Part shown: in pieces, positions 1 through 64,000 of the stretch | Position numbering within the stretch: position 1 is the stretch's first letter | How the letters are laid out: every line of letters begins with the position of its first letter | IMG/VR virus record: IMGVR_UViG_3300019378_000003 | From: a virus | Lineage: Duplodnaviria; Heunggongvirae; Uroviricota; Caudoviricetes | Direction: 5' to 3' (one strand) | DNA length: 64,000 nucleotides | Notes under the pieces: generated by a model | Told to the model about the DNA's origin: nothing | Seen by the model: the letters and a program-made list of their open reading frames with translations, nothing else | Database searches by the model: none | Position numbers and translations under genes: made by a program

Positions 1-702
1 TTTCAGATCACGGGCTTTTTCCAAAATCTTAATTAACGTCAAATCACCATACTCGTTGTGAGGAATGCGCACCAATGGCACTCCAATGTCCATACACCAC
101 TCGGTTTTAATTTTGTCTCTTTCTTGCTGATGTACAAAAGTTTCTTCTCCACCCCAAATTTTCACTGGCGCGGCATGCTGATAACCATCGAATTCAATGA
201 CAAAAGCTAATCCTTCTTTTCCAAATACAGCAAAATCAAAAGCGTATCTCTGTAATCCTTCAAAACGATATTGTTCTTGAAAATTCAATCCACCCGCTTG
301 AAGCAATTCACGTATTTTAATTTCGCCTCTCGATGAATGATGACAAGCTACACAAGTATTCTGTCCACTCTTTAGATGATCTGCCTGAATCTGTTTTTCT
401 AAGCCACATCTCACGCAACGACATTTCCAATAACATACATGACTACGATTAATATATCCGATTCGCTCTAATACTTCGAAATCGCCATATTTATCTCCCA
501 CTTCTACTTTCTTGCGTTTGCGCAGTCCAAGAGAACAAGGTTTACAGGAAATTGCCGTTTGACCATTAAGCTTATCAATACGTACACTTACAGTATTACC
601 ACAAAGTTCACATTTACATAAAAAATACTTATTTCCATACTAGGCCGTTTTCACTGGATCCGGCCCTAACACTGTTAAAAATCCACTTTTCTTACCAACC
701 AT
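1..702 (-). CDS. Zinc-finger protein with C-terminal Vsr/DUF559-like (restriction-endonuclease-fold) domain; putative homing endonuclease. Truncated at the window edge (C-terminus missing).
   Basis: Minus-strand ATG at 700-702 reads MVGKKSGFLTVLGP... and has one in-frame TAG. It has several CxxC/CxC clusters, then ...RGEIKIRELLQAGGLNF...YAFDFAVFGKEGLAFVIEFDGYQH..., matching the R.DF...E.DG.QH signature of Vsr-like DUF559 nucleases. It is a paralog of the 5863-6219 gene. Confidence 0.5.
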
Positions 703-1093
703 TACAACCTCCAAATTCTGGACACCACATTACACATTGTCCGTCCGGTCCTTCACATCCAAGAGCCTCAATCGGCAAATCATGGTTTTTGCAAAATTTC
801 TCATACTCGCCCCATCCGCAATTCCATAATACATGCTTCGAAACAAATTCATTTTCGGCACGTCTATAAGCATCCTTCTCTTCTTGTGTAGAAGGACGAA
901 TATTCGGGTCTTTTGGCTCATGATACTTAATAGTCGTAGAGCCATCTGGATTTGTTGTCCATGTAGTAATATTCTTATACCACTCCGAATCTTTCTTAAA
1001 AGGATTTTCAAGAGTAGTAGTTCTGTCCCATTCTTCTCTAGCATGAAATACTACCGCATTCACGCCACTAACTACAATAGGTTTAAAAGACAT
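692..1093 (-). CDS. Hypothetical Cys-rich protein, 133 aa.
   Basis: Uninterrupted ORF ending in TAA. C-terminus is CGWGEYEKFCKNH...GCEGPDGQCVMWCPEFGGCNGW. No homology recognised. Confidence 0.45.
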   Translation of the reverse strand: MSFKPIVVSGVNAVVFHAREEWDRTTTLENPFKKDSEWYKNITTWTTNPDGSTTIKYHEPKDPNIRPSTQEEKDAYRRAENEFVSKHVLWNCGWGEYEKFCKNHDLPIEALGCEGPDGQCVMWCPEFGGCNGW

Positions 1094-1412
1094 CTATATC
1101 GTAATCCCCTCTCACGGCAACCCAATCGCCGACATTAACATGCATTGTCTGCCACTCGTGAAGCCGAACTTCTCTCCACTTGCCGTCTCGCTCAATTCGA
1201 ATATACCAATAGCCCGGCTTATCAACCATTCTGTGGCCATCTGCCATGGTGATAATTTCTCTGGGGTGATACTGCTCCAAGACAACCTCACCTGTAGACA
1301 GGCGTGGGTCATAATTGGATAAATCACCTATCGCAAAAGTAAGGAGAGTGGCTAACATAATCGCCACGACAACCATAAAAACTGGTACAAAAATTTTACT
1401 TGTACGGCTCAT
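1083..1412 (-). CDS. Small membrane-anchored protein (N-terminal TM helix, ~80-aa C-terminal domain).
   Basis: ATG at 1410-1412 (minus) sits after an AAGGAGG-like RBS. The protein reads MSRTSKIFVPVFMVVVAIMLATLLTFAIG..., then ...DGKWREVRLHEWQTMHVNVGDWVAVRGDY. It ends in TAA. Confidence 0.45.
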   Translation of the reverse strand: MSRTSKIFVPVFMVVVAIMLATLLTFAIGDLSNYDPRLSTGEVVLEQYHPREIITMADGHRMVDKPGYWYIRIERDGKWREVRLHEWQTMHVNVGDWVAVRGDYDIDVF

Positions 1413-1731
1413 TCTATGCGTATCCTCCTTGGTAGTCCTGCCAGATACCTTCGTCGCCAAAATACATTACAGCATCTTTCATATTATATCTATCGCCGAC
1501 CCAAAAAGTATACCACTGAGCCGGGCTTACATATTTGGTCCAACGGCAACCATCAAGGTCATCAATGACAAACCAGTAAACGCCACCATGATTCTGACCA
1601 TATTCATCAATATAGCCAGTTACCATACCCTTGTCTACGATAACGCCAGTGTCATTGCTACTACCAACAAGCAAACCACAAACTCCCACAAAAATACAAA
1701 TCAGGCCTACAATTAAAACTACCCATTTCAT
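1396..1731 (-). CDS. Small membrane-anchored protein, paralog of the 1083-1412 gene.
   Basis: ATG at 1729-1731 (minus) is preceded by AAGAGG. The protein reads MKWVVLIVGLICIFVGVCGLL..., then ...DGCRWTKYVSPAQWYTFWVGDRYNM (same DG.WR...W...VGD pattern). A TAG at 1414-1416 is read through to TAA at 1396. Confidence 0.4.
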
Positions 1732-1763
1732 AGTATTTACCTCTTGTTTCATTTTCTAAATAT

Positions 1764-1792
1764 ATTATATCAAAATTTTTTAAAATTTTCAA
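1764..1792 (-). promoter_or_regulatory. Leftward sigma70-like promoter (TTGAAA-N17-TATAAT on the minus strand).
   Basis: The reverse complement of 1787-1792 is TTGAAA and of 1764-1769 is TATAAT, 17 nt apart, immediately upstream of the leftward gene start at 1731. Confidence 0.4.
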
Positions 1793-1803: not shown

Positions 1804-1832
1804 TTGACACGAGAAAAAATTTTTGTTATAAT
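1804..1832 (+). promoter_or_regulatory. Strong consensus sigma70 promoter, TTGACA-N17-TATAAT.
   Basis: 1804-1809 is TTGACA, followed by the 17-nt spacer cgagaaaaaatttttgt, then 1827-1832 TATAAT. GAAGGAGG follows at 1842-1849. This implies a very short (~10 nt) leader for the first rightward gene. Confidence 0.65.
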
Positions 1833-1849: not shown

Positions 1850-2920
1850 TTGATTATTATAATCAAGTTAGATTATACGATCGAGTCTCCGGAAGAGCGT
1901 AATAAATTAGTAGAACAGATTTTAGCTGAAACTCCCGACCCGAGTGAACAGTATCTTGAAATTCTTGCTGATTATTTAGTTCTTTGTATGGAGAAGCAAG
2001 AGCGTAGAGAGAGAAAGATTCTTACGGATAATAGAATGGCTACTATTAATAAACGTGAGACATCTTTTGAAGGTCTTATCGGGCAGTTAGAAAATGGCGA
2101 AGATGGTATTTACAATTTAGTAACGAACGATAAAAATATTATATTTCAACCTAAAGTAACTATTACAAAACAAGATATTGAAGAAATTGCGCCTTTACGA
2201 CAACTTAAAGAATCAATAGCTAGATGGGAAGAGTTGTCAAAGACTGCTACTGGACGCGCCGCGTTTATCGCGAAATCTACACTCATTGAATTACGTAAGG
2301 ATTAGTATATTATAAAAAATGCTTATCGTAAACCAATTGTTTTTACTCGATTAACACGAAACACAAGCACTGGAGTGTCGCTCCCCTGGGATGAGTGGAT
2401 TGATGAGAATGGAGATATACAATATTCCGGTCTTTCTTTTTTGAATCCCGATATTATTAGTTTAATTTTATGTAATTATTCAAAACTAAAAGAAGATAGT
2501 TGGGATTAGTTCCAAGGGGATACTTGGTACATGATGCTGGATTTTGATAATATTGCCGAAAAAGCATTAGCAAGTTTCCCTATGTATCGCCGCATCGTTG
2601 AATACAAGGTCGATGGATTGTCCAATCTGACTATTCAAAAAGCAATAGAAGAAGAATTTGGCTTCACCCATTCCATTGAATACATTAGCTCTTTATGGCG
2701 TAATAAAATCCCAAAACTAATTGCTTCTGCCGCAACCGATGAATGGCTCCTTTGGTATTATACTGAAAAAGAACGTGGCCAATGGAAGCGCTGTACTCGC
2801 TGTGGTCAAGTTAAGTTAGCCCATTCACGCTTTTTTTCCATAAATAAAACATCTAAAGATGGATGGTATAGTTTATGTAAGAAATGCCGCAACTCCAAAA
2901 ATCGTAAAAAGGAGGGCTAA
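1850..2920 (+). CDS. Hypothetical protein with C-terminal Cys4 zinc ribbon, 356 aa, 2 in-frame TAG.
   Basis: Single frame-2 reading frame from TTG 1850 to TAA 2918-2920, through TAGs at 2303 and 2513. C-terminus reads CTRCGQVKLAHSRFF...SLCKKCRNSKNRKKEG. The start is uncertain: the RBS abuts the TTG, and the next in-frame ATG is at 1988. Confidence 0.45.
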
Positions 2921-2923: not shown

Positions 2924-4105
2924 ATGGCAGTTGGCAATAATACTTATTACTGTAAAACTTGTAATAGAACTATGGATGAAACTTAGTTCTATACTTCAAG
3001 AAGATTAGACCGTTATCCAAATGATGGTAAGATGCCCGAATGTAAAAAGTGTCTTACTCGCCATGTGGATAATTGGAAACCTGAAACTTTTAAATGGATT
3101 CTTGAAGAAATTGATGTTCCCTACATTGAAGAAGAATGGACCAAATTAATGAGTAAATACTGCACTGACCCTTCCAAGGTCACTGGTATGACAATTCTTG
3201 GTCGCTATCTTTCTAAAATGAAATTGACCCAATTTGAAAATTATCGTTGGGCTGATACAGAAACTATTTAGGCTCGTTTAAATGCTAGTAAAGCCGAAGT
3301 AATGACTCGCCAAGGTTATTCAACAGAAGAAATTGAGGCAGCCATTGCGGCAGGCAATGGTATTGAAAAACCTGAAGGTTGGGACACTTCGCCATCGGCG
3401 GTAGATGCTCCACCTCCAATTGATGCTTTTGAACCAGTTGATTTTAATGATGACCTTACAGAAGAAGATAGAAAGTATCTTGCTATCAAGTGGGGAAAAA
3501 CTTACAAACCCTATGAATGGGTTCAATTAGAAAAATATTATCAAGAAATGATGGCATCTTTTGATATTCAAACGCCATCTCATGAAGATTATTTAAAACT
3601 TATTTGTAAAACTTCTATTAAGGCGCATCAACTTATTGACTTAGGAGACATTGAAGGCTTCCAAAAGATGTCTAAAGTTTATGATGCTTTAATGAAATCT
3701 GCTAAATTTACAGCAGTATAGAATAAAGCTGAATCTGGTGAGTTTGTAAATTCTATTTCTGAATTGGTTCTCTTGTGCGAGAAAGAGGAAGGATGCATTC
3801 CTCGTTTCTATACAGATAAACCAAAAGATAGAGTAGATGAAACACTTGCCGATTTGCGTGGCTATACTAATACTCTTGTTACCGAAGAAATGAATTTGGG
3901 TAATCTTATTGAATCTGCTTTGAAAGCACTACAGCGAGAAGCTGAACGTGAAGAAGATGAAGATATTGATGACGATGATGAAATTTTTGATATGGATAAT
4001 ATTGATGATTTAAAAGATAGCGATTTTGAAGAACATTACGACTTTTTGGACGATGAAGCCGAAGCTGACTTCCTTGATATGCAAGATATATTAGAGGAGG
4101 AATGA
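2924..4105 (+). CDS. Putative terminase small subunit. Zinc-ribbon N-terminus, acidic C-terminus, 393 aa, 4 in-frame TAG.
   Basis: ATG 2924 to TGA 4103-4105, followed at once by TAA and the terL ATG (tgaTAAatg). N-terminus reads YYCKTCNRTMDE...MPECKKCLTRH. The C-terminus is an extremely acidic tail. The call rests on position directly upstream of terL. Confidence 0.35.
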
Positions 4106-4108: not shown

Positions 4109-5851
4109 ATGGCTTTATAGGATTTATTAAACCTTTCACAAGATAGATAGAAAATTGGATTATCAGAAGAACGAGTAAGGGCTATTATTCCTGTTGCTCG
4201 CGACTATATTTCTTACTGGCGTGAATATCCAGATATGTTCGTCGACTTTATGGCGGGTAAGTGGCAAGCCAACCCGCCTAAAGAGACGCTTAATCTATTC
4301 TTCTACCAGCGAGTATTTTTGAGAGCCGCTATGCGTTATAAATACGTATATGCGGTTTTTCCGCGTGCTTATTCTAAATCTTTCCTTGCCGTTTTGATTC
4401 TTATGACTCGTGCCGTTTTATATGCCGGCTCTAAGTTATTTGTAACATCTGGTGGTAAGGAACAGGCTTCTGGTATTCTAAAAGAAAAAGTATAGGAAAT
4501 TTGTACTTTGGTGCCGGGCTTCGCAAAAGAGATTGATTGGGGCCGTGGTAAAACTTTGGAAGGTAAGGATTATTGTAAGTATATTTTTAAAAGTGGTTCT
4601 TATATTGATAACTTGGGCGCTTCTGAAAAATCAAGAGGTAAGCGTCGTCATGGCGGACTCGTTGAAGAGTGCGTTGGTGTCGACGGAACTATTTTGAACG
4701 AAGTTATTATTCCAGTTATGAACGTTTCTCGAAGATTGCCCGATGGCACTTCTGATGATAATGAAGTTCTTAATAAGAGCCAAATCTTTGTTACGACCGC
4801 AGGTTGGAAGAATACTTTTGCTTATGATAAACTTATTCAAATGCTAGTTGGTTAGATTACACAGCCTGAAAAGTTCTGTATTATGGGTGGTACTTGGCGT
4901 ATTCCTGTTCTTATGAAATTACTTGATAAGAACTTTGTGCGCGACTTGAAATTGGACGGTACATTTAATGAGTCCTCTTTTGAACGTGAATATGAATCTA
5001 AATGGTCTGGTACTATCGAAGATGCATTCTTCCGTGCAGAACAATTTGACCGCAACCGCATTCTACGTCAGCCTGAATATGAATATTCCGGACGTTCAAT
5101 TAAATCGGCATATTATGTTCTGTCTGTTGACGTTGGCCGAAAAGGTTGCGATACGGTAGTTTGTGTATTTAAAGTAACACCTTAGACTGCCGGTGTGTCT
5201 ATTAAAACATTGGTAAACATTTATACACTTCACAATGAACACTTTGAAGATTAGGCTATTGCACTCAAAAAACTTTATTATAAATATAAGGCGCGTCGTA
5301 TTGTTATTGACGCCAATGGTCTTGGTATTGGTCTTGTCGACTATATGGTAAAATCTTAGATGGACCCAGATACGAATGATATTTATCCTGACTTTGGTGT
5401 AGAAAATGATCCCGATGCTGAATATAAAAAGTTCCGCACAGATGCGTGTGAATATGATGCTATGTATTTGATTAAAGCTAATGCGCCAATCAATACTGAA
5501 GCTCATGCCAATGCGTAGACGCAACTTTCCTCTGGTAAAGTAAAAATGTTAATAGATGAACGTGTGGCCAAAGTAAAATTGCTTGGAACTAAACGCGGTC
5601 AAGAAATGAAGCCTGAAGAAAGGGCGGAATATCTTAAACCATTTACCCTTACCTCCATATTGAAAGAGGAAATGATGAATTTGCGTGAAGAAAATGAAGG
5701 CGTAAATATCATCTTAAAGCAAGCGAATAAAGGTATAAAAAAGGATAAATTTTCTGCTTTTGAATATGGTTTATACTATATTAAATAGGAAGAAGATAGT
5801 AAAAAGCGTAAACGAAAAGGAAAAATATCTGATTTTATGTTTATGAATTAA
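4109..5851 (+). CDS. terL: Terminase large subunit, 580 aa, ~9 in-frame TAG.
   Basis: Six track ORFs (4235, 4508, 4883, 5546...) are all in frame 2 and separated only by TAG. The gene ends in TAA at 5849-5851, followed by AAGGAGG plus ATG. ATPase-like N-terminus reads ...FLRAAMRYKYVYAVFPRAYSKSFLAVLILMTRAV...LFVTSGG. RNaseH-like nuclease region reads ...YYVLSVDVGRKGCDTVVCVFKV...RRIVIDANGLGIGLVDYM. Confidence 0.8.
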
Positions 5852-5862: not shown

Positions 5863-6219
5863 ATGAGAGCATCACGAGGAGAAATTAAAATTCAAGAGAT
5901 ACTCCAATAGTCTGGCTTGCGATTTACAATGGAACAGTCATTTGAGGGACTGAATAGTTCTAATGGTCGCCCATTGCGTTTTGACTTTTGCGTTTATGAT
6001 GATGATGGCAATATTGATTTTTTAATTGAATATCAAGGTAAGCAACATTATGAGCCAAGTCAAAAATTTGGAGGCAAGAAGGGTTTCTATTAGTAGCAGT
6101 TTAATGATAATAAGAAGCGTCGCTTTTGTGCATTGAATGAAATTACTTTAGTTGAAATTCCATACACAGAAGAGAATCTTATTTCATACGACTATATTTT
6201 AGAAAAAGCTGGTTATTGA
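5863..6219 (+). CDS. Small Vsr/DUF559-like endonuclease (homing-endonuclease-like), 118 aa, 3 in-frame TAG.
   Basis: GGAGG at 5852-5856, then ATG 5863 to TGA 6217-6219. Reads RGEIKIQEILQQSGLRF...RPLRFDFCVYDDDGNIDFLIEYQGKQHY, the same signature and a clear paralog of the nuclease domain in the 1-702 gene. It is inserted between terL and portal. Confidence 0.5.
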
Positions 6220-6232: not shown

Positions 6233-7831
6233 TTGCGAAGAAGATAGGATGAAATCCGAGCAAAAGGATTTTAGATGACACCTCGCCCAATAGACTATGA
6301 AGGCCCCATGTCTTCCATGGATTTCGCCAAGATTAGAGTTGGTCTTTAGACTCTTGATGATGCTATTTTGGATCTTGGTAGTTTAAAAAAGGGTAATGTC
6401 CGTTATACAAATAAGAATACAATTCTTAAGGCTTTGGCCGAAAGAGATTATCCATTGCTACGAGAGATTTCAGAATACTGGTTTGAAAACAGTGGTATTT
6501 ATGAACGTCTTTGTAAGTATTTTGCTTATCTATATAGATATGACTGGTATGTTGTTCCTTATGTTGAGGATGACAGCATTAAAGAAGATAAAATACTTGC
6601 TGAATTTAGTAAAGTGCTAAATTATATGGACGCTTCAAATATAAAATACATGTGTGGTAATATTGCCCTTGAAGTCGTAAAGAATGGCTGTTATTATGGC
6701 TATATTGTAGACAGCGAAGGTGGTATTACTATTTAGCAATTGCCGATTGGATATTGCCGCAGTAGATACTTTGTTGGCAATCAGCCCGCAGTTGAATTTA
6801 ATATGAAATTCTTCGACGATAAATTTCCAAACCTTGAATATCGCATGCGCGTATTGAAAATGTTCCCGCCAGAATTTGCTAAGGGTTATGTTCTTTATAA
6901 AAAGGGTAAACTCAAGGATGAAGATGGAACAGGTTCTGATGGATGGTATCTATTAGACCCAGCTTGTGCGATTAAGTTAAATATTTGCGGCACTGACTAT
7001 CCTATGTTGGTTAATGCGATTCCATCTCTTTTGGATTTGGATGCCGCGCAGGATTTAGATCGTCGTAAGACAATGCAGAAACTTCTCAAAATTATTATTC
7101 AAAAATTGCCGCTTGACAAGAATGGCGATTTGATTTTCGACGTTGATGAAGCAAAAGACATTCATAATAATGCCGTTCAAATGTTAAAGAAGGCAGTTGG
7201 TGTTGACGTTCTTACTACTTTTGCTGATGTAGAAGTTGCCGATTTGGCTGATAAGAATACTACAACTTCAACTGACGATTTGAATAAGGTTGAACGTACT
7301 GTTTATAATGCTCTTGGCGTTTCACAGAATCTTTTCAATACTGATGGTAATATCGCTCTTGAAAAGTCTATTCTTAACGACGAAGCATCTATGAGAAGTC
7401 TTATTTTACAGTTCTAGAATCTTTTAAATAAGATTGTTAGACATAAATTCCCTGGGAAGAAGAAATATAATTTCCGCGTCTTTATGTTGGAGACGACAGT
7501 CTACAACTACATCGAGCTTGCGAAGATGTATAAAGAGCAGGTTACTATTGGTTATTCCAAGATGTTGCCACAAATTGCTATGGGACATTCCCAGAGTGCA
7601 GTTATTGCTAATGCTCATTTTGAAAATGAAATTCTACATCTTTATGAAATTATGATTCCTCCTATGATGTCTTCCACTATGAAAGGTGAGGACATTTTAG
7701 GGCAAAAAGGTCAGGGGAAAAATTAGGTAAATTAGGCACAGTCTACTGAACAATCAAAAGGTGGACGTCCTGAAAAGCCGGATGGTCAAAAATCTGAAAA
7801 GACCATTCAAAATAAGGAGTCAGCCAGCTGA
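6233..7831 (+). CDS. Portal protein (candidate), ~532 aa, ~7 in-frame TAG.
   Basis: TTG 6233 lies 8 nt after GGAGG (an alternative start is ATG 6275). Track ORFs 6368, 6740 and 7484 are all frame 2. The gene ends at TGA 7829-7831. Size, position after terL and the acidic LDLDAAQDLD... segment fit a portal. Confidence 0.55.
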
Positions 7832-7854
7832 TGGCTGAGGGAGGAAGTTAGATA

Positions 7855-11675: not shown

Positions 11676-11680
11676 TCAAT

Positions 11681-12151
11681 ATGGCGACATCCTTTGAAAC
11701 TATTACAAATAAGTTTCTCGGTAAAATTACCGATGATATGTATTTAGAACTCACCCCAGAAGATACTTTGAGAGACGCTAAATCATTTCTATTGGATGCC
11801 ATTCCTTATTTTGAATTTCCTCGTTTTGCTTTGTATGATTACAACGTAGAGTTGGAAGAATATAATATAGATTTAACCGACGAGGAAATTAACATTCTTG
11901 CTTTGTTGATGAAAACAGCATGGCTTGAACGTTAGATAAATTCTGTTGAACACACTCGAATGAAATATTCCGGCTCTGATTTTAAAATGACCTCTCAAGC
12001 CAACCATTTGTCGAAGCTTTTGCAGTTGAAATCAGAGAATGTTCGTGAGTCTACTCACGCACAGCGTCTTTACAAAAGACGTAAGTTTAATGAAGACGGA
12101 ACGGTTTCTTCAAACTGGTCATGTTTGTTGGATACCAGCGCTATTGAATGA
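11681..12151 (+). CDS. Head-tail connector/adaptor candidate, 156 aa, 1 in-frame TAG.
   Basis: GAAGGAGAG then ATG 11681. Track ORFs 11681 and 11960 are in the same frame, separated by a TAG at 11933. The gene ends at TGA 12149-12151, overlapping the next start (ATGA). Function is positional only. Confidence 0.35.
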
Positions 12152-13394: not shown

Positions 13395-13405
13395 GGAGGG
13401 ATAAA

Positions 13406-41811: not shown

Positions 41812-41813
41812 TT

Positions 41814-49983: not shown

Positions 49984-50013
49984 AAATAAAAAAGAAAAAG
50001 GGGATATTTAACT

Positions 50014-57700: not shown

Positions 57701-58760
57701 AGGCGATGAAATTAGTCGAGATTACTTCAAACCTGCGAGTGTTAGTGAAGGTGTAGATTATCTTACCAGTGATGAAATCGCTATTGGTATTAAACCTGAC
57801 TTTGCAGACGAGGCTATTATTATTCCTTCTACTTATGACGGAAAACCTGTTGGTCTAGTTAGAGTAGAGTATGGCGACTAGCAACCTAAGAACTTACGTC
57901 GTATTTTCTTCGAAGAAGGAAATACAATTAAGGTTATCGGCAATAATTTTATGGCAGAAAACAAGAATATTGAATTCTGTGATTTGTCTGCTCTTGGCTC
58001 ATTATCACTTATCGGTATTCAAGCTTTTATGAATTGTTTTAATTTAACATTTAAGTCACTGCCGAATAGCGTTACAAAAATTGACACTAATGCTTTTGCT
58101 TATTGCTCTTCAATTAATTTTTCTGCTTTACCTGATAAGTTAGAATCATTAGGTCCTAATGCATTTAGGTCTTGTGAATCTTTAGGAGAAATTACAATTA
58201 ATAATACTTAGCTCACACAAATCCCTGATTACGCTTTTGAACGTTGTACTAATCTTAAGATCAAGGGCGAAACTATCAATTGTTTAGTTACTACAATTGG
58301 TTAGTATTCATTTGATTATTGTAGTAATTTAGTTTTGAATTTTGATATTGATTCTACTAATAGACTATCTACAATTAAAGATTTTGGCTTCGGTCATACT
58401 CCAATGTTAAATATCAATAATTTCCCAAGCAATCTTACTTCTATCGGCACTTCAGGTATGAGTTCTGTAAATGGTGCTGGAGGCTTGTTGACAGCTAATG
58501 TAATTCCTAAGACTGTTACCTCAATCGGTGGTGGCGCATTTATGTTTAGAAAATTGGCAGATGAAAATCTTGGTATCCTTATTATCGAAAATCCAAATAT
58601 TATTTTAGCAGATAGTGCTTTCTCATATTTGTCAGGGGTAAAGGAAATTTGGGTTCCAAAATCTGTTGATTTAAATAGTGCTCCTTGGAATTCTGAAACT
58701 TGTTTTGGATGTACTCAATCCTCTCCTGGTGTTATTATAAAACACAATCCTAATGGCTAA
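51765..58760 (+). CDS. Giant tail fiber/receptor-binding protein, 2331 aa. Central CotH-like region, C-terminal BspA-type leucine-rich repeats.
   Basis: AAGGAGG then ATG 51765. Nine track ORFs (51879...58335) are all frame 0. I checked every junction (52766, 53564, 53960, 56480, 57533, 57881, 58211) and found TAG only. The gene ends at TAA 58758-58760. N-terminal anchor motif reads FKGSKSAIDNFQGIEDGRLFFATDTKQIMLD. The LRR region reads ...IGIQAFMNCFNLTFKSLPNSVTKIDTNAFAYCSSINFSALPDKLESLGPNAFRSCESLGEITI... Confidence 0.6.
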
Positions 58761-58775: not shown

Positions 58776-59000
58776 ATGAAAAAAGTTATATTATATCAAT
58801 ATGTAAATGATAACAATGAAGTGGTAGTAACTACTGAGCCGATGTCAGAAACATCGGCTCAGATCTTCTATCTTTTAACTGCGGACGAAGGTTATTATTT
58901 ATATAATAAAAAATTACATCATAAAAGGAAGTCTACAATTACTTCCGATTATCTTGCAGATAATTGGGAAGAATTAAAATAGAAAGAAGGAAATGAGTAA
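58776..59000 (+). CDS. Small hypothetical protein, 74 aa, 1 in-frame TAG.
   Basis: ATG 58776, ending at TAA 58998-59000, which overlaps the next ATG. Confidence 0.35.
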
Positions 59001-60349
59001 TGGCTATTATAGCTTCTGAACATGTATTAGGTCTTGCGATGGGCCAAGAGGCGAAATTAACTACGCCTGGCACTACGGGTTATTTAACCCCCAAGGCTGG
59101 TATGATGTACATTACAACAGATACTCATAAATTATTTGTTGATACTGTTGATGGTACTCGTATTGCGATTAAATCTCCTGAAGCTGCGAAAGTAACTAAT
59201 GCTTTTACTATTAAGGTTGGAGGCACTGCTTTAGGATCTGCCTTTAATGGTTCTGCTGCTAAAACAGTTAATTTTGTTGCTGGTACAAACATGCAGCTTG
59301 TTCCATCTAATAATAATACAATTACAATTAATAATACTTTGTCTATTCCAACCTCTTTGAAAAATCCTTATGCTTTAACATGGGGAAATAAATCTTATGA
59401 TGGTTCTGCTGCGAAAGAAATTACTTTAGAAGATTTCGGTATTACCAATGTTCTTCACTTCTTGGGAACTACTACTGATACTAATGTTGTAGACAACGGT
59501 ACCACCAAGACTATTACTATTGGTGGCGCTTCTGTTACTGCAGTTTCTGGTGATATCGTAATTAGAGACAATGTTGAATATATCTGGACGGGAACCGCTT
59601 GGGAAAAGCTTGGAGACGAAAATCTTTGGGTTCCAAATACTCGCACTGTTAGTGCTGGTTCTGGATTAACTGGTGGCGGAGCATTATCTGGCAATCTTAC
59701 TATTTCTCACGCTACTTATAATTGCACCCATCCAACCAGTGGCGATTTTGTGTCAAGTATTGCTGAAACCAATGGTCATGTTACAGGATATACCAAGACT
59801 AGCTGGTCTAGCGTAAGAAAAACTTTAGCTTTAAAAATTAATGGCACTGCTCAAACTACTTATGATCCATTTGGCTCAGCAAATCAAAGCTTTAATGTTC
59901 CTGTAATGACTGCAGGAGATTCTTCCAAGGCAAGTACAATTGGTTTAGTTCCAGCCGCAGCTGCAGGAGCGACTACTCGTTTCTTATGCGCCGATGCTAC
60001 TTGGCACTCTCTTGTAGCGGGTACCGGTATTAGTGTTAATGGATTAACTATTAGTAATGCTGGCGTACGTAGTATCACTAAAAAGTCTAATGGTGTACTT
60101 ACAATTGCTACTGGAGAGGCTTCTGGTGATATTACAGTTTATAGCTTACCAGCAGCAACTACTAGCGCTCTTGGTGGTGTAAAAGTTGGTAACAATATTT
60201 CTGTAGATAGTGGTGTAATCAGCCTTACCGCAAATAATGTGAAAAATGCATTGGGTGTTGCTACAGCTAGCGCAGATGGTTATTTACAAAAAACTGATTT
60301 TGCTCTATTCACAGAAGCTCATGATTCTATTGTTTGGGGTACTTTCTAA
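59000..60349 (+). CDS. Tail fiber protein, 449 aa, no TAG.
   Basis: N-terminal motif reads ...GYLTPKAGMMYITTDTHKLFVDTVDGTRIAI. The protein is Gly/Thr/Ser-rich and beta-rich. C-terminus is ...SADGYLQKTDFALFTEAHDSIVWGTF. It ends at TAA, followed by a terminator. Confidence 0.5.
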   Translation: MAIIASEHVLGLAMGQEAKLTTPGTTGYLTPKAGMMYITTDTHKLFVDTVDGTRIAIKSPEAAKVTNAFTIKVGGTALGSAFNGSAAKTVNFVAGTNMQLVPSNNNTITINNTLSIPTSLKNPYALTWGNKSYDGSAAKEITLEDFGITNVLHFLGTTTDTNVVDNGTTKTITIGGASVTAVSGDIVIRDNVEYIWTGTAWEKLGDENLWVPNTRTVSAGSGLTGGGALSGNLTISHATYNCTHPTSGDFVSSIAETNGHVTGYTKTSWSSVRKTLALKINGTAQTTYDPFGSANQSFNVPVMTAGDSSKASTIGLVPAAAAGATTRFLCADATWHSLVAGTGISVNGLTISNAGVRSITKKSNGVLTIATGEASGDITVYSLPAATTSALGGVKVGNNISVDSGVISLTANNVKNALGVATASADGYLQKTDFALFTEAHDSIVWGTF

Positions 60350-60403
60350 TTGGTCCGTCTAAATTAAATAATCTAAATTGCTTTCTATATTATTTAGAGC
60401 ATC

Positions 60404-60440
60404 GGGAGGAGTCTATTTCTGGGCTCCTCCCATTTTTTTA
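60404..60440 (+). terminator. Rho-independent terminator.
   Basis: GGGAGGAG-(12-nt loop)-CTCCTCCC hairpin followed by ATTTTTTT. Confidence 0.55.
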
Positions 60441-60459
60441 TTATAAAGGAGATTTGATT

Positions 60460-60927
60460 ATGCCAAACATTATTTTTGAGAATGGCGGTCATTTAAGAAC
60501 GACTCAATGTTCTGCAGATGAAGTATATGGTATTGAATCTCTTCAAATTTACATTCCTACTATTTATAATAATTCTCAAATTTTCCTTATGCTCAAGAAT
60601 AAGTAGAATTTATATGAAATAGTAGAATTAGTAAAAAGCAAAAGAGAAAAAAACCATATCATTTGTAAGATTGCCGCAGGTTAGAATTTTAGAGTTTCTA
60701 ATGATTTAATGACTTTGGCAATCTTAATTCTTGATCCAGTAAAAAATATATTTGAATTTAGTAAGGAAATTGAAATTAATCTTACAACTGATAAATATAT
60801 TATGGCGCGGCAAATTCAATTAGCGGCGCAATTAGGATCACAAGTTTAGGCTTATTATCAAAAGATAGTAGAGCTTACTGAAGAAAATAAAAAAATATAT
60901 GAATAGATGAAAGGGGTACATATATAA
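60460..60927 (+). CDS. Hypothetical protein, 155 aa, 4 in-frame TAG.
   Basis: AAAGGAG then ATG 60460, in one frame to TAA 60925-60927 (TAATGA overlap with the next gene). The track ORF 60334-60606 is a 5'-overextended fragment of this gene. Confidence 0.4.
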
Positions 60928-62627
60928 TGATAGTAAGAGTTCCTTCTTATACTGAAGATGCTATCTTGCATGGTGAATATCAAAAATTATTTGCCGCAGC
61001 AGAAAAGAAAACAGACCCAGGTACAACTATTACTAGTTTACCAGAATATTTTAATGCCCTTCAAAAAGATGCCAATTTGCGTGGTATTGGACGTTTTGCT
61101 CGTATTCCTCTTGATGAAGATTTATTTTTAGTAAATTTAAATGATCGTTCTATTACTGTTCCTCCACATTTCCAAAAATATGGTGTTGCAGTTAATGGAG
61201 ATCATCTTGCTGAATTCTTATTCTTCCGTGTTGATAGATATTTTGATCAAATGGATTTATCTGAATGTGAATGTCGTATTGAATGGATGACTGCAGGAAA
61301 TAAACCATTGGCGGCTTATACACCAGCACATGCTATTGATTTAGTGTTTGAAGCTCCAATTGATCCTTCCATTAATCCCAAGCCTACTCATGGCGATATT
61401 ATTTATGCTGATGATAGTGAAAATGAAGAAGACCGTGAAAATGGAGATAGAAGTGCAATTATTTTTGGATGGCCTTTAGATAATCAATTTACTTCTGAAG
61501 TTGGCGATGCTAAATTTGCAATTCGTTTTGTTTAGTATGATGTCAATGAAAAAGATGGAACTAAAGAAATTGTTTTCAATCTTTTAACTTCTCCTGCTAC
61601 TGTGAAAATTCTTCCAAAACTTCCTATTGATTCTGAAATGCTAGAAATGGTAGATTATAGTGCTACTTTGGCTTCTCGTCCTGTATATTCTGGTTTAATT
61701 AATAGCACTGGTCTTAAACCTGTTATTACTTCTTATAGCTGGGCTGAAAAAGCTTATGAAAATTTGGAAGAAAATGGTCAAGTAACATTAAGTGTTACGG
61801 CGACTGACCCAGATCCTTCTAAACATCCTTTAACTTATCAGTGGTTTAAAGATTCAAAATCACTTTCAGGAGAGACACAATCTTCATATGTTGCCACTGA
61901 GGCTGGATTGTATCATGTTGTTGTTATGAATGCCGTAGAGGATGAAGAAGGCAATCAAATCAGTACGACTAGTATTGCTACTAATCCTTGTTTAATTCCT
62001 AGTGCAGGCAAAATTGCTATTGATTATGAAGGTTATCCATTACAGCTATTTTCTAGCGGTGAATATGCAACTTCTGAAATTAAAGTTAAATTTGTTCCTG
62101 CTCTTGAGGCAGATCATAATCTTGGAAAGATTAATTATTCTTGGGCCGAAGATGGTATTGAGATAAATACTGGTGCAGTTGAAAAAGCAGGAGATTTCTA
62201 TTGGGAAGTTCCATTGACAATTGAAAATATGGCTCATGGTAATTTTGTTTTAAATGCTACTCATGTATTAAATAAAACAGAATCTGCTACGGTAGAGAGT
62301 AAAATGATTGAAATTCGTCCTGCCGCACAACAACCAGAAGAAGTTGTAATTAGTGCAAATGAAGACCGTTCTATTTTTGAATGTTCTTGCGTTGTACCTG
62401 GCAATGATGATTTACAGTATACTTGGTCTTATACTAAATCTGAAGGTACTTTGATTTCTATTTCTTCCGGTTGGGGAAATGAAAAAACTATTTCTATAGA
62501 AGCTATTGAAGCAAAACTTGGACGTGAAATAAAAGCTAAAGAAGCTTTACATGTTGCAGTGCGTCAAATTCGTTTTAATAATGAAGCAAATGCAAGTACA
62601 ACTGCTAGCGCCAGTTTTAATCTTTAA
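60927..62627 (+). CDS. Virion protein, 566 aa, 1 in-frame TAG. N-terminal domain is paralogous to the 62657 gene.
   Basis: Track ORFs 60927 and 61602 are in the same frame, separated by a TAG at 61533. The gene ends at TAA. Reads ...GDHLAEFLFFRVDRYFDQMDLSECECRIEWMTAGNKP...FAIRFV. Confidence 0.45.
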
Positions 62628-62656
62628 GATTAGTTTCATAAAACAGGAGGTATAAT

Positions 62657-63283
62657 ATGAGTTATTATCTCGCTAATTCTTATTATAATGCTCTGTTGGA
62701 TATATAGAATAATTCAGGTACATAGCTTTTAAAGTTTGATTTAACAGACGAAGAAGATATGATAAAACCTCTTATTGAAATTGATCTAAATAAACGCTTA
62801 ATTATTTTACCTCCTGAATATGATCCTGAGCAAGGTGGTTTTTTAAGCCTAGAAAGTGATCATTTAGCAGAGTATTTATATTTTGTAGTAGATCGTTATT
62901 ACGAAGATATGGATTTATTTCAAACTGCTATTGTGGTAGAATATATTAATGCTGCAGATAAGCCGGAATCTCGAATATTTCCGGTCATGTTAAAAGATAT
63001 TACTACTATGCCAGGCAAAATTATTTTTGCCTGGCATATCGGCAATGAAGCTACAAAAGCGGCTGGCATGATTAAATTTGCAGTACGTTTTTATTTAGTT
63101 CATCCGACAGAGGCTAAATTTGAATATAATTTAAATATTTAGTCTTCACAGAGTGAAATTAAAAAAAGTTTAGGGCATATAGACTGGGAAGAAGAATATG
63201 CCGATATTTTTGATCCTTCTACTCTTGAGATTATTTTATCTGGTATTGAAATGGCCAGACATGTATATTGGACAGATGTTTAA
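62657..63283 (+). CDS. Virion protein, 208 aa, 3 in-frame TAG. Paralog of the N-terminus of the 60927 gene.
   Basis: AGGAGG then ATG 62657, in frame with track ORF 62759, ending at TAA 63281-63283. Reads ...SDHLAEYLYFVVDRYYEDMDLFQTAIVVEYINAADKP...FAVRFY. Confidence 0.45.
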
Positions 63284-63310
63284 TTTTTAGAGAAAAAGGA
63301 GTTTTTTTAT

Positions 63311-64000
63311 ATGGCTCATAAAATATTGATAGGTAATGATGGAACTTACGGGTCTCCTGTTACACATTCAGATTTTGTATTTTTTGATGATGGTGAAAGC
63401 CTTACTGAAAAAATGGATGTGTATAATATTTATATTAATGATTTAATGTATCCTGTGGGTCGTATTCTTGAAACCACAGGAAATTTTAATCCAAATGGGC
63501 ATTATCCTGGTGTGTGGCGTTTATTAGAAAAAAATCATACTGTCATTAGTGCGGGTTCAATTGCATTATAGGGGAAGAAAGAAAGTCCTATGGAATTATT
63601 TCTTCCTGATGGATCAGTATGGGATTTAATTTATCATCATGAAATTGCAGGTGGATATTGGGCATCCACTGCCGATTGCTTAGATTTTGATTTAAATGCT
63701 ACAAAACAAAAATTTGGAAAAATGAAATATGTAAATAATTATTATAATGCCAATGATACATTAGAATTTTTAATGGTATATAATGTTCCTTATGGAGGCG
63801 GAGTCTCTGGTGCAGTAACTAATATGGGGCGTTGGGTACAGCATGCTTCTCCTTTTTCGGCAGGTAATGCCCATAGGTCCGCGGCATGGGATAAACCTGC
63901 TACTGTTGATGGTTATAATGCAACAACCACATTTACGGCGGCAGATGGTACGATTGTTACAAATACCGATATTAATGCTGGTTTATATGTACCATGGACG
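63311..64000 (+). CDS. Hypothetical protein, partial (runs off the window end), at least 1 in-frame TAG.
   Basis: AAAGGAG then ATG 63311. A TAG at 63569 is read through, and the frame stays open to position 64000. Confidence 0.35.

What the first reader, a model, noticed from the sequence alone, without database searches (positions are those of the whole stretch)
1..64000. TAG is a sense codon throughout: a stop-codon-recoded (code-15-like) tailed phage.
Every large gene is a string of same-frame ORF fragments separated only by TAG. terL (4109-5851) is 6 fragments in frame 2. The tape-measure gene (17788-29175) is 16 or more fragments in frame 1. The 51765-58760 fiber is 9 fragments in frame 0. 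The same holds for 29267-35383, 35799-38975, 38972-41458 and 41814-46385. I hand-translated several inter-fragment gaps (32288-33070, 40226-41111, 18970-20446 and all junctions of the 51765 gene) and found TAG but never TAA or TGA. Each gene then ends at TAA or TGA, followed within ~10-20 nt by an AGGAG-type RBS plus start or by a terminator hairpin. Gln is the likely reading: TAG falls in helical Q-rich tape-measure context (AAQ-TAG-LKLHLQAAT), and TAG-to-Gln is the known phage recoding. Under the standard code this region annotates as about 150 short ORFs. Recoded, it is about 50 genes including a 3795-aa protein. No suppressor tRNA is in this window, so it must lie elsewhere on the element.
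Basis: partly seen in the sequence, partly recalled or inferred. Interest (0 to 1): 0.9.

Follow-up and report, generated by a model that had tools for sequence, protein, structure and literature searches.

The report
Gut phage reading TAG as glutamine

Summary
On the + strand, 35 genes (1850-64000) carry 241 in-frame TAG and no in-frame TAA or TGA. All 34 complete genes stop at TAA or TGA. ORFs of at least 100 aa cover 95.5% of the window if TAG is sense, against 50.8% under code 11 and 50.9% under code 4.

TAG means glutamine. In 80 related loci, TAG positions align to CAA/CAG in 44% of cases and never to TGG. Against the standard-code Enterococcus phage EF1, 16 of 45 align to Q.

The window is part of a 168.7-kb ENA contig. 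I walked that contig and found a 32-tRNA array with a tRNA(CUA) 32.8 kb left of the window, behind its own consensus promoter.

[quoted passage not shown] The most abundant virion proteins have none.

The phage is an SPbeta-like siphovirus with a 3795-aa tape measure, distantly related to the published code-15 phage phAss-1. It is a new member of a known kind.

The most novel lead is the suppressor tRNA, which looks derived from tRNA-Trp and has a conserved extra stem-loop.

The parts
1..729 (-). Endonuclease-like early-block gene (240 aa in full; its 3' end runs off the window), with one in-frame TAG at 640-642
   Evidence: Called as a 240-aa product with a weak DUF2726 hit on the identical contig. 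ATG at 729-727 sits behind GGAGG, and the TAG is codon 21.
692..1093 (-). Early-block gene, 133 aa, no TAG
1083..1412 (-). Early-block gene, 109 aa, no TAG
1396..1752 (-). Early-block membrane-protein gene. A TAG at 1414-1416 lies 5 codons before the TAA and overlaps the next gene's start (TAGAATG), so it may be a true TAG stop.
1764..1792 (-). Consensus sigma-A-type promoter (TTGAAA-17-TGATATAAT) driving the - strand early block
1804..1832 (+). Perfect sigma-A-type promoter (TTGACA-17-TGTTATAAT) in front of g01
1850..2920 (+). g01, 356 aa, 2 TAG. PHROG annotation 'sigma factor', with a C-terminal zinc ribbon; function not established.
   Evidence: phrog_5767 E = 3.7e-53; no Pfam hit; homolog in EF1
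2924..4105 (+). g02, 393 aa, 3 TAG. YonG-like; possible small terminase by position.
   Evidence: PF27269 YonG_N on record; phrog_3314
4109..5851 (+). g03, large terminase, 580 aa, 9 TAG
   Evidence: Matches phrog_15503 and phrog_24618 (two half-length families) and phrog_5909 terminase large subunit. 7701 homologs found. Aligns to the EF1 terL exons.
5863..6219 (+). g04, free-standing homing-endonuclease-like gene, 118 aa, 3 TAG
   Evidence: phrog_9084 E = 7.9e-28
6233..7831 (+). g05, portal, 532 aa (518 aa from ATG 6275), 7 TAG
   Evidence: phrog_2739 E = 1e-80 over aa 60-530
7831..9255 (+). g06, YonD-like head protein, 474 aa, 1 TAG
   Evidence: PF27290 YonD_N on record
9274..9963 (+). g07, head protein (scaffold or decoration by position), 229 aa, 0 TAG, strongly biased codons
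9988..11031 (+). g08, major capsid protein (YonB family), 347 aa, 0 TAG, followed by a terminator at 11053-11079
   Evidence: PF27364 YonB on record; phrog_4088; tblastn relatives; terminator
11106..14149 (+). g09-g13, head-tail connector and tail-completion genes (189, 156, 100, 314 and 247 aa; 0, 1, 1, 2 and 6 TAG)
   Evidence: g13 has a weak YomV_2nd hit
14172..15233 (+). g14, tail tube protein (YomU), 353 aa, 0 TAG, terminator at 15251-15282
   Evidence: PF27173 YomU_Tube on record; phrog_2729; terminator
15318..17108 (+). g15 (YomW-like, 177 aa, 5 TAG) and g16 (413 aa, 9 TAG)
17105..17133 (+). Second perfect sigma-A-type promoter (TTGACA-17-TGTTATAAT), upstream of g17 and the tape measure
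17166..17690 (+). g17, YomO-like (tape-measure chaperone by position), 1 TAG, terminator at 17727-17760
   Evidence: PF27287 YomO on record; terminator
17788..29175 (+). g18, tape measure protein, 3795 aa, 92 TAG
   Evidence: PF10145 PhageMin_Tail E = 3.8e-29 at aa 191-396, spanning TAGs at aa 213 and 394. Aligns to the 2675-aa EF1 protein. Called as 3795 aa on the ENA contig.
29267..35383 (+). g19, giant tail protein, 2038 aa (1992 aa from ATG 29405), 34 TAG. It has the highest TAG share among the large genes (46% of Gln-type codons).
   Evidence: no Pfam hit
35411..46385 (+). g20-g24, tail-tip, baseplate and fibre genes (128, 1058, 828, 112 and 1523 aa; 0, 12, 15, 1 and 12 TAG), terminator at 46396-46420
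   Evidence: PHROG tail and tail-fibre hits
46447..51687 (+). g25-g29, tail and fibre genes (94, 109, 410, 531 and 557 aa; 0, 1, 0, 3 and 1 TAG), terminator at 51696-51728
   Evidence: g27 has a weak Phage_tail_C hit
51765..58760 (+). g30, LRR-containing fibre or adhesin, 2331 aa, 11 TAG, terminator at 58834-58862
   Evidence: PF13306 LRR_5 on record
59000..63997 (+). g31-g35, fibre and receptor-binding genes (449, 155, 566, 208 and 370 aa in full; 0, 4, 1, 3 and 1+ TAG). g35 runs off the right end of the window.
   Evidence: faint Gp10_C hit on g35

Best explanation
The window is the late (packaging, head, tail, fibre) module of a roughly 168.7-kb SPbeta-like siphovirus from gut metagenomes. 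Its likely host is a Bacillota bacterium that uses the standard code. In this module TAG is a glutamine codon, and termination uses only TAA and TGA.

Decoding depends on a phage-encoded tRNA with anticodon CUA. It sits in a 32-tRNA array in the oppositely oriented early/middle block, 32.8 kb left of the window, directly behind its own consensus host-type promoter.

**Shown**
- TAG is read through in frame.
- TAG is evolutionarily interchangeable with CAA/CAG.
- The tRNA(CUA) is on the same genome.
- TAG use is graded: early 1.9%, replication 11%, structural and lysis 29-30% of Gln-type codons.
- TAG is absent from the codon-optimised, most abundant virion proteins.

**Inferred**
- Early genes are translated under the host's code.
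- Transcription of the tRNA array by host RNA polymerase builds up the suppressor.
- Only then can TAG-containing late genes be completed, so recoding acts as a translational timer or lock on late and lysis functions (the model of Borges et al.).
- The tRNA is charged with Gln by the host's machinery. It has a tRNA-Trp-like body, a CUA anticodon, a weak 1-72 pair and G73, which is the situation of the classical E. coli Su+7 suppressor that GlnRS charges with glutamine.
For: **TAG is read through**
- 241 in-frame TAG against 0 TAA/TGA in 20,272 codons. Coverage is 95.5% against 50.8%.
- Profile matches span TAGs.

**TAG means Gln**
- In 2615 aligned TAG positions across 80 IMG/VR relatives, the partner codon is CAA 32.7%, TAG 12.1%, CAG 11.1%, TGG 0, TAA 4 cases and TGA 0. 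This is almost the same profile as CAA itself.
- The maximum-likelihood amino acid is Q, by more than 2700 lnL units.
- Against cultured standard-code Enterococcus phage EF1, 16 of 45 TAG positions align to Q, against a 4.8% background.

**The window belongs to a complete phage genome**
- The window is 100% identical to ENA contigs of 168,658 and 169,368 bp over the 11,093 bp compared, and exact proteins from across the window map to the same contig.

**The suppressor tRNA**
- tRNA(CUA) lies at L304 17075-17167. Rfam tRNA score is 57.5 bits, and ARAGORN calls it within a 32-tRNA array.
- A promoter TTGACT-17-TGATATAAT lies 24 nt upstream.
- Homologous suppressor tRNAs occur in 45 IMG/VR contigs, including terL relatives and phAss-1-like phages. 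The cloverleaf is supported by covariation: 96.9% paired and 17 pairs with double changes.

**Graded use**
- TAG share of Gln-type codons is 241/825 (window) and 58/190 (late block beyond the window), against 4/215 in the early block (Fisher p = 9.5e-23) and 12/111 in replication genes.
- The early block has 32 consensus sigma-A promoters in 20 kb, against 3 with an extended -10 in the 64-kb window.
- The TAG-free genes g07, g08 and g14 also almost lack TTA.

**Published precedent**
- PMC10607447, bioRxiv 10.1101/2021.08.26.457843 and PMC9523058.
Against: - There is no protein-level evidence for this phage, so Gln is inferred from evolution only.
- The tRNA body resembles tRNA-Trp, not tRNA-Gln, and carries an unusual extra arm. 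Its charging is unproven.
- If the host is a Bacillota lineage without GlnRS, the Su+7 analogy fails, and charging would need the GluRS/GatCAB route or some other enzyme.
- About 42 kb of the genome (contig about 31-73 kb) was not read, so a phage aaRS, RF2 or further suppressor tRNAs cannot be excluded.
- The timing function is a model. Two of the three strong host-type promoters in the window face into the late module, so transcription may not be strictly late.
- A few early or replication genes do contain TAG.
Confidence: 0.9

Rival explanations
1. The TAGs are nonsense mutations or assembly errors in a decaying prophage or a chimeric contig, and the fragments are what is really expressed.
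For: Under code 11 the region does annotate as many short ORFs. JGI/IMG and GenBank records of relatives are annotated that way.
Against: - Decay would produce all three stops, but the counts are 241 TAG against 0 TAA/TGA in frame.
- The same proteins occur on 50-200-kb contigs in more than 30 independent assembly blocks.
- TAG interchanges specifically with CAA/CAG in relatives.
- Domain matches cross TAGs.
Confidence: 0.01
2. TAG is sense but encodes another amino acid: Trp (the tRNA body is Trp-like), Tyr, Leu or Ser (the tRNA has a long extra arm), Lys, Glu, or pyrrolysine (ARAGORN labels the tRNA 'Pyl').
For: - The anticodon arm is 13/14 identical to the phage's own tRNA-Trp(CCA), and the tRNA has A1-U72 and G73.
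- It has an extra variable stem-loop, as class II tRNAs do.
Against: - 0 of 2615 TAG positions align to TGG, 6 to TAC/TAT, 3 to TTG and 1 to TCG. Lys and Glu codons appear only at the level also seen for CAA.
- Maximum likelihood strongly favours Q.
- The discriminator is G73, not the A73 of Tyr and Leu tRNAs (established identity rules, from my own knowledge).
- The D-arm is class I, with G18G19 and a normal T-loop, unlike tRNA-Pyl.
- No Pyl genes were seen in the roughly 127 kb of the genome examined.
Confidence: 0.03
3. The phage has simply adapted to a host whose own genetic code reads TAG as sense, so there is no phage-driven code switch.
For: The host is unidentified. Relatives are binned with very diverse MAGs.
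Against: - The early block avoids TAG almost completely, both as sense and as stop (4 in 7,648 codons). That fits genes that must work before the code changes.
- The phage carries its own tRNA(CUA) with its own promoter.
- Borges et al. predict standard-code Firmicutes and Bacteroidetes hosts for such clades.
- No bacterial lineage with TAG read as Gln is known to me.
Confidence: 0.04
4. TAG is read only partially: leaky suppression in competition with host RF1. Truncated products would then be a designed part of the proteome, or TAG density would tune protein dosage rather than timing.
For: - TAG is absent from the most abundant, codon-optimised proteins and densest in low-copy giant proteins such as the tape measure and g19. 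That is what a dosage-reducing codon would look like.
- No RF2, or any means of removing RF1, was found in the part of the genome read.
Against: - A 3795-aa protein with 92 TAG could not be finished unless per-codon read-through is very high. At 99% per codon only about 40% of chains would finish, and at 90% essentially none.
- This is compatible with, rather than exclusive of, the main explanation.
Confidence: 0.15

Closest known systems
Genetic code 15 (TAG read as Gln) recoded gut phages: Ivanova et al. 2014; crAss-like and Lak phages; the Garnet, Amethyst, Agate and Topaz clades of Borges et al. (bioRxiv 10.1101/2021.08.26.457843); metaproteomic proof in crAss-like phages (PMC9523058)
   Same: - In-frame TAG in structural and lysis genes.
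- A phage-encoded tRNA(CUA).
- Early genes compatible with the standard code.
- Variable recoding of replication genes.
- A gut origin and a presumed standard-code host.
   Different: - The virion module here is SPbeta-like and siphoviral, not crAss-like or Lak.
- Assignment to a named Borges clade could not be tested. Agate (154 +/- 27 kb) is the nearest in size.
- No RF2 was seen in the roughly 75% of the genome read.
Phage phAss-1 (OQ749652) and the proposed 'Phassvirus' group (PMC10607447); NCBI 'Caudoviricetes code 15 clade'
   Same: - TAG read as Gln.
- A large tRNA array with tRNA-Sup(CUA).
- One of phAss-1's three suppressor tRNAs is a clear homolog of the one here, with the same extra arm and compensatory changes in the acceptor stem.
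- A giant tape measure (3149-3209 aa there, 3795 aa here).
- Relatedness to Enterococcus phage EF1.
- Human or animal gut origin.
   Different: - Only 51% MCP identity, and no megablast match.
- Genome of about 169 kb against 133-138 kb.
- One tRNA(CUA) found so far, against 2-3.
- No suppressor tRNA next to nrdD here.
- Different gene order around the module.
Bacillus phage SPbeta and large Bacillota siphoviruses (Enterococcus EF1/VRE9, Clostridioides phiCD211-like, Brevibacillus Sundance)
   Same: Homologous YonB capsid, YonD, YonG, YomU tube, YomW, YomV and YomO proteins, and a very long tape measure, in the same order.
   Different: - Those phages use the standard code.
- EF1's terL is interrupted by introns and an HNH gene, while terL here is intact with a free-standing endonuclease downstream.
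E. coli Su+7 (supU): tRNA-Trp with a C35-to-U change, giving a CUA anticodon that GlnRS charges with glutamine (Yaniv, Soll and colleagues, 1970s; from my own knowledge)
   Same: - A tRNA-Trp-like body: anticodon arm 13/14 identical to the phage's tRNA-Trp, an A1-U72-type weak pair, G73, and the loop CUCUAAA against CUCCAAA.
- A CUA anticodon.
- The evolutionary signal says Gln, not Trp.
   Different: - This is a natural, conserved phage gene family with an added stem-loop of about 20 nt in the variable region.
- Charging enzyme and host are unknown.

Membership tests
Code-15 (TAG read as Gln) recoded phage | Conserved phage genes are intact only if TAG is read through; TAA and TGA never occur in frame | tested here: met
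   241 TAG against 0 TAA/TGA in 35 genes. Coverage is 95.5% against 50.8%. Profile hits span TAGs.
Code-15 (TAG read as Gln) recoded phage | TAG positions correspond to Gln in homologs | tested here: met
   CAA+CAG make up 44% of all aligned positions and 50% of aligned sense codons. Q is the maximum-likelihood residue. 16 of 45 positions are Q in standard-code EF1.
Code-15 (TAG read as Gln) recoded phage | TAG is not used as a terminator | tested here: met
   27 TAA and 7 TGA in the window, and 0 TAG stops in the 90 further genes examined. One ambiguous case exists at (-)1414-1416.
Code-15 (TAG read as Gln) recoded phage | Phage-encoded suppressor tRNA with anticodon CUA | tested here: met
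   Not in the window. Present on the identical contig at L304 17075-17167, which is contig 76,855-76,947.
Code-15 (TAG read as Gln) recoded phage | Recoding concentrated in late (structural and lysis) genes, with early genes compatible with the standard code | tested here: met
   TAG share is 29-30% late, 10.8% replication and 1.9% early; p = 9.5e-23.
Code-15 (TAG read as Gln) recoded phage | Gln actually incorporated at TAG in the protein | not testable with these tools
   Needs metaproteomics, as done for crAss-like phages in PMC9523058.
Proposed genus Phassvirus (phAss-1 group) | Genus-level nucleotide similarity and synteny with phAss-1 (members share 80-86% nucleotide identity) | tested here: not met
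   No megablast hit in the phage collection. MCP is 51% identical. The layout of the tRNA and nrdD region differs.
Proposed genus Phassvirus (phAss-1 group) | Membership of the wider monophyletic group around phAss-1 and EF1 (shared capsid, terminase and giant tape measure) | tested here: inconclusive
   Homology is clear, but no phylogeny was built.
SPbeta-like virion module | YonB capsid, YomU tube and associated Yon/Yom families in conserved order | tested here: met
   Precomputed Pfam hits on the identical contig: YonG_N, YonD_N, YonB, YomV_2nd (weak), YomU_Tube, YomW and YomO.
Pyrrolysine decoding of TAG | tRNA-Pyl architecture, pylS/pylBCD genes, and TAG at Lys-like or specialised sites | tested here: not met
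   The tRNA has a canonical D-loop (G18G19), a T-loop and a 5-bp anticodon stem. TAG aligns to Gln. No Pyl genes appear among the called genes of about 127 kb.
Su+7-type (tRNA-Trp-derived) amber suppressor | tRNA-Trp body with CCA changed to CUA | tested here: met
   The anticodon arm is 13/14 identical to the phage's own tRNA-Trp, and the same holds for phAss-1 Sup2 against phAss-1 tRNA-Trp. Both share A1-U72, G73 and the loop CUCNAAA. The overall core is only 74% identical to the phage tRNA-Trp.
Su+7-type (tRNA-Trp-derived) amber suppressor | Charged with Gln by GlnRS | not testable with these tools
   Indirect only: 0 of 2615 TAG positions align to TGG. G73 is invariant, and the 1-72 pair is never G-C in 28 family members.

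The most novel reading that the evidence does not exclude
The suppressor tRNA of this lineage is not a mutated tRNA-Gln. It is a tRNA-Trp-derived (Su+7-like) amber suppressor that has gained a conserved stem-loop of about 20 nt (loop YUGAAG) in the variable region.

The extra arm is present in 40 of 45 phage contigs that share this anticodon arm, across phages whose MCPs are only about 50% identical. It could be a phage-evolved identity or anti-determinant element that blocks TrpRS or recruits the Gln-charging route. It could instead protect the tRNA from host anticodon nucleases.

If so, it would explain mechanistically why TAG becomes Gln in these phages, and it would be a natural example of an engineered-looking orthogonal suppressor.
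Probability: 0.4. Interest if true: 0.6.

Novelty: new member of a known kind. Interest (0 to 1): 0.35.

Why it matters
**Practical value.** The window shows how standard-code annotation shatters such genomes. There are 276 fragments here. PHROG families 15503 and 24618 appear to be half-terminases, and the JGI and GenBank records of relatives are fragmented. Annotated under code 15, the genome adds a roughly 169-kb SPbeta-like lineage, common in gut assemblies, to the set of code-15 phages.

**Biological value.** The genome gives an unusually clean picture of graded recoding:
- Early genes: 1.9% TAG share, each behind a consensus host promoter.
- Replication genes: 11%.
- Late genes: 30%.
- The most abundant proteins: none.
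- The suppressor tRNA has its own promoter.

This makes the proposed 'code switch as a late-gene lock' directly testable in one system. The Trp-like suppressor with an extra arm is a concrete lead on how tRNA identity is rewired in nature.

Tried and rejected
1. **Megablast of 25 kb against GenBank phages.** No match.
2. **Looking for the suppressor tRNA near terL or the glycosyltransferase.** I scanned 100 related loci from IMG/VR and GTDB and found only stray Asn, Arg, Ile and Cys tRNAs.
3. **A generic tRNA(CUA) pattern scan of IMG/VR.** It was capped at 120 unrelated hits.
4. **Walking rightwards through IMG/VR relatives of the glycosyltransferase.** This left synteny and landed in a different phage type with its own tape measure.
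5. **A chimeric protein query to obtain ids for both genome ends.** It returned only glycosyltransferase relatives of at most 79% identity.
6. **phAss-1 NrdD as bait.** It recovered only phAss-1-like contigs.
7. **What worked.** Exact-sequence cluster look-ups give protein ids that the contig look-up accepts, which allowed a walk along the window's own contig.
8. **Pfam-A (local copy).** It gave nothing for most head genes. The newer Yon/Yom families came from precomputed hits.
9. **MAG bin labels as host evidence.** Rejected as unreliable. The labels range from Bacteroidales to Treponema, though most are Bacillota.
10. **The 'sigma factor' label of g01.** I did not accept it as shown, because it rests on a single PHROG name.
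11. **The - strand ORFs at 9292-11076.** Rejected as genes. They are shadow ORFs caused by the near absence of TTA, CTA and TCA codons in g07 and g08.

Full report

Yes. The window is 64 kb at 34.9% GC. If TAG is not counted as a stop, the + strand resolves into long open frames from 1850 to the right edge. I fixed starts by their Shine-Dalgarno sites: nearly every gene has AGGAG(G) 6-10 nt upstream. That gives 35 genes with 20,272 codons.

- These genes contain 241 in-frame TAG and no in-frame TAA or TGA. The other two frames of the same genes hold 1707 TAA, 1687 TGA and 733 TAG.
- The 34 complete genes stop at TAA (27) or TGA (7), never at TAG.
- + strand ORFs of at least 100 aa cover 50.8% of the window under code 11, 95.5% with TAG as sense, 50.9% with TGA as sense and 56.7% with TAA as sense.
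terL has 9 TAG, the tape measure 92, and the 51765-58760 gene 11.
- There are about 39-40 genes in the window, not about 50. Code 11 would cut the 35 + strand genes into 276 pieces.
- Terminator hairpins do follow several genes (11053, 15251, 17727, 46396, 51696, 58834, 60404).
- No tRNA is in the window (ARAGORN; Rfam).

**2. What the genes are**

PHROGs identify a portal (E = 1e-80, aligned across aa 60-530) and a large terminase. The terminase hits two half-length PHROG families, which look like artefacts of standard-code annotation of relatives. PHROGs also identify a homing-endonuclease-like gene and virion proteins.

The 3795-aa protein has the tape-measure core domain PF10145 (E = 3.8e-29), and that match spans two TAG codons.

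Precomputed Pfam hits on the identical public contig name the module as SPbeta-like: YonG_N, YonD_N, YonB (capsid), YomV_2nd, YomU_Tube, YomW and YomO. LRR_5 is recorded on the 2331-aa fibre, and Gp10_C proteins, a glycosyltransferase and an endolysin lie further right.

A tblastn search with the capsid protein finds, in order:
- an unannotated human-faecal contig (59% identity);
- phage phAss-1 (51%);
- Enterococcus phages EF1 and VRE9 (38%);
- large Bacillus, Clostridioides, Brevibacillus and Mammaliicoccus siphoviruses.

There is no nucleotide-level match in GenBank phages.

**3. Which amino acid?**

I ran tblastn with the window proteins (X at TAG positions) against 80 IMG/VR loci that encode terL relatives, and read the subject codon opposite every window codon.

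| Window codon | n | Partner codons in relatives |
|---|---|---|
| TAG | 2615 | CAA 32.7%, TAG 12.1%, CAG 11.1%, GAA 8.2%, AAA 4.5% |
| CAA | 4505 | CAA 32.4%, CAG 10.5%, GAA 8.0%, TAG 6.9%, AAA 5.2% |

The two profiles are almost the same.

- The one-step neighbours of TAG are essentially absent: TGG 0, TAT 0, TAC 6, TTG 3, TCG 1.
- TAA appears 4 times and TGA never.
- Treated as a likelihood problem, Q beats the next residue by more than 2700 lnL units.
- Against Enterococcus phage EF1, a cultured standard-code phage, 16 of 45 aligned TAG positions are Q, against a 4.8% background. Q is again the best fit.

So TAG is a Gln codon, and it supplies 29% of all Gln-type codons in this module.

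**4. Where the window comes from, and the suppressor tRNA**

Exact-protein look-ups place the window on ENA metagenome contigs of 168,658 and 169,368 bp. These are 100% identical over the 11,093 bp I could compare. Other window proteins map to the same contig, and the window wraps around the contig end, which indicates a circular or permuted genome. A near-identical 168,644-bp JGI contig also exists.

The same proteins are listed in 35-52 blocks of the assembly collection, and 30-35 of those blocks hold 50-200-kb contigs that carry them.

Neither the 9.3 kb to the left nor the 6.3 kb to the right has a tRNA. After several dead ends, I walked the contig using ids from exact cluster look-ups.

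- About 20 kb of small - strand genes lies to the left of the window. Beyond them comes a tRNA array: 32 genes by ARAGORN and 34 by Rfam.
- The array contains a 93-nt tRNA with anticodon CUA (L304 17075-17167, Rfam 57.5 bits). Its position is contig 76,855-76,947, which is 32.8 kb left of window base 1 and on the window's - strand.
- A TTGACT-17-TGATATAAT promoter sits 24 nt upstream of it.

**5. How recoding is distributed**

| Gene class | TAG / Gln-type codons | Share |
|---|---|---|
| Late block, in the window | 241/825 | 29.2% |
| Late block beyond the window (fibres, endolysin, neighbours) | 58/190 | 30.5% |
| Distal - strand replication and nucleotide-metabolism genes (RuvC-like, dUTPase, NrdG, NrdD, Gmk, Pol III alpha) | 12/111 | 10.8% |
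| Early block (54 genes, 7,648 codons) | 4/215 | 1.9% |

The contrast between the window and the early block gives Fisher p = 9.5e-23.

The early block also does not use TAG as a stop. One possible exception is at window (-)1414-1416, where TAG sits 5 codons before a TAA and overlaps the next start.

Promoters follow the same split. The early block has 32 near-perfect sigma-A-type promoters (TTGACA-17-TGnTATAAT) in 20 kb, roughly one per gene. The 64-kb window has three with an extended -10:
- the divergent pair at 1764-1832;
- one at 17105-17133.

Within the late block, eight genes have no TAG. They include the capsid (g08), its neighbour g07 and the tail tube (g14). These three also almost lack TTA codons (1-2 each, against an average of 38 per 1000). 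That marks them as codon-optimised, and it creates long antisense shadow ORFs at 9292-11076. TAG therefore behaves as a codon that the most highly expressed genes avoid.

**6. Mechanism**

*Shown.* TAG is read through as a Gln-equivalent codon. The genome encodes a tRNA(CUA) under a host-type promoter. TAG use is graded by gene class.

*Inferred, following Borges et al..* Early genes are translated under the host code. Accumulation of the suppressor then permits completion of TAG-containing late and lysis proteins, so the code change acts as a timer or lock.

*Quantitative constraint.* Finishing a protein with 92 TAG needs read-through per codon close to 100%. At 99%, only about 40% of chains would finish. 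Suppression late in infection must therefore be very efficient, or RF1 must be countered. I found no RF2 or aaRS in the roughly 75% of the genome that I read.

**7. The tRNA itself (side finding)**

The tRNA aligns convincingly with one of phAss-1's three suppressor tRNAs, including compensatory changes in the acceptor stem.

Its exact 17-nt anticodon arm occurs in 45 IMG/VR contigs. These include four contigs from my terL set and six phAss-like ones. All but one at a stretch edge were extracted, and ARAGORN calls each extracted stretch a tRNA(CUA). 40 of the 45 tRNAs called (the window genome's own among them) carry a stem-loop of about 20 nt in the variable region.

On 28 distinct sequences:
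- the cloverleaf is 96.9% paired, with double changes in 17 pairs;
- the extra stem is 93.8% paired, with two covarying pairs;
- G73 is invariant;
- the 1-72 pair is never G-C and is unpaired in 11 of 28.

The anticodon arm is 13/14 identical to the phage's own tRNA-Trp(CCA). The same relation holds between phAss-1 Sup2 and phAss-1 tRNA-Trp.

From my own knowledge, a tRNA-Trp with a CUA anticodon is the classical E. coli Su+7 suppressor, which GlnRS charges with glutamine. U35, G73 and a weak 1-72 pair are GlnRS identity elements. This would explain why a Trp-like tRNA yields a Gln code. It is inference, however. The host, whether it has GlnRS, and the role of the extra arm are all unknown. 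A literature search found no description of such an extra arm.

**8. Comparison with what is known**

TAG-to-Gln recoding of late genes with phage suppressor tRNAs is established:
- Ivanova et al. 2014 (from memory);
- Borges et al. (bioRxiv 10.1101/2021.08.26.457843);
- proteomic proof in crAss-like phages (PMC9523058).

It has been reported for relatives of this very lineage (phAss-1, PMC10607447). NCBI even has a 'Caudoviricetes code 15 clade' taxon. The public protein collection had already called these genes with TAG read through, for example a 580-aa TerL and the 3795-aa tape measure.

This genome is not a Phassvirus: 51% MCP identity, no nucleotide match, and 169 kb against about 135 kb. 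It belongs to the same broad SPbeta/EF1-like assemblage. Whether it falls in Borges's Agate clade (154 +/- 27 kb) could not be tested.

Relatives are binned mostly with Bacillota MAGs from yak, deer, chicken and human guts. The strong Shine-Dalgarno sites and sigma-A-type promoters fit a Bacillota host. That is weak evidence.

**9. Verdict**

It is a new member of a known kind.

Interest is moderate to low for the recoding itself (0.35). The finding is well documented and the genome is a clean example. The Trp-like suppressor with an extra arm, and the 3795-aa tape measure, are the items most worth following up.

Noticed in passing
window 17788-29175: The tape measure protein is 3795 aa, larger than the 3149-3209 aa reported for phAss-1-type phages and the 2675 aa of EF1. 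At about 1.5 Angstrom per residue (the lambda rule, from my own knowledge), this predicts a tail of about 0.57 micrometres. It ends in poly-Gly tracts (GGGGGGGGGGGGG near aa 2620, and GGGGGGGH at the C-terminus).
   Followed up: partly
L304 17075-17167 (contig ena:ERZ27248314:k141_3767000, about 76.9 kb; 32.8 kb left of the window): The suppressor tRNA(CUA) has a tRNA-Trp-like body and a conserved extra stem-loop of about 20 nt in the variable region (loop YUGAAG). The family occurs in 45 IMG/VR contigs, with G73 invariant and the 1-72 pair never G-C. I found no description of it in the searchable literature.
   Followed up: yes
L299 1854-17899 (early block, contig about 91-109 kb) and L304 539-17051: There are 32 near-perfect sigma-A promoters (TTGACA-17-TGnTATAAT) in 20 kb, about one per small early gene. 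In the tRNA array a second promoter class recurs, with an AT-rich spacer (TTGAAAAnTTCAAAAAATTnTGATATAAT).
   Followed up: partly
window 1804-2920: g01 carries the PHROG label 'sigma factor' and has a zinc ribbon at its C-terminus. It sits behind a perfect host-type promoter but contains 2 TAG codons. If it is a late transcription factor, its synthesis would itself wait for the suppressor tRNA. Its function is not established: there is no Pfam hit, and it could equally be a terminase-associated DNA-binding protein.
   Followed up: no
window 9292-11076, - strand: Two long antisense ORFs (232 and 361 aa) exactly overlie g07 and the capsid gene g08. They are shadow ORFs. g07, g08 and g14 almost lack TTA, CTA and TCA codons, which would be the antisense stops. 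These are the same genes that contain no TAG.
   Followed up: yes
window 5863-6219 and 1-729 (-); L260 (EF1) 11738-14846: Both homing-endonuclease-like genes carry in-frame TAG (3 in 118 codons; 1 at codon 21, in an otherwise TAG-free early block). This echoes Borges et al.'s recoded intron endonuclease. In Enterococcus phage EF1 the terL homolog is split into at least 4 exons with an HNH gene, whereas terL is intact here.
   Followed up: partly
window 1414-1416 (- strand): A TAG lies 5 codons before the TAA of an early gene and overlaps the next gene's ATG (TAGAATG, with AGGAGG upstream). It may be the one place where TAG still works as a stop, giving two C-termini before and after the code switch.
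   Followed up: no
L304 12554-12625 and 19122-19183; L303 about 18660-18790: Rfam finds two tRNA-like elements that ARAGORN misses. One stretch looks like a tRNA interrupted by a long insert. These may be intron-containing or decayed tRNAs within the array.
   Followed up: no
PHROG families 15503 and 24618; JGI proteins P0265, P0266 and P0290: Public resources hold fragments of recoded genes as if they were families or proteins. Two PHROGs correspond to the N- and C-terminal halves of this terminase. JGI calls the 349-aa glycosyltransferase as pieces of 134 and 72 aa.
   Followed up: partly
L301 19820-20053 (contig about 19.9 kb, next to the endolysin at L301 17558-18490): A 77-aa protein in the lysis neighbourhood has 4 TAG in 77 codons, the densest seen. 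This fits the idea that lysis functions are the most tightly locked.
   Followed up: no
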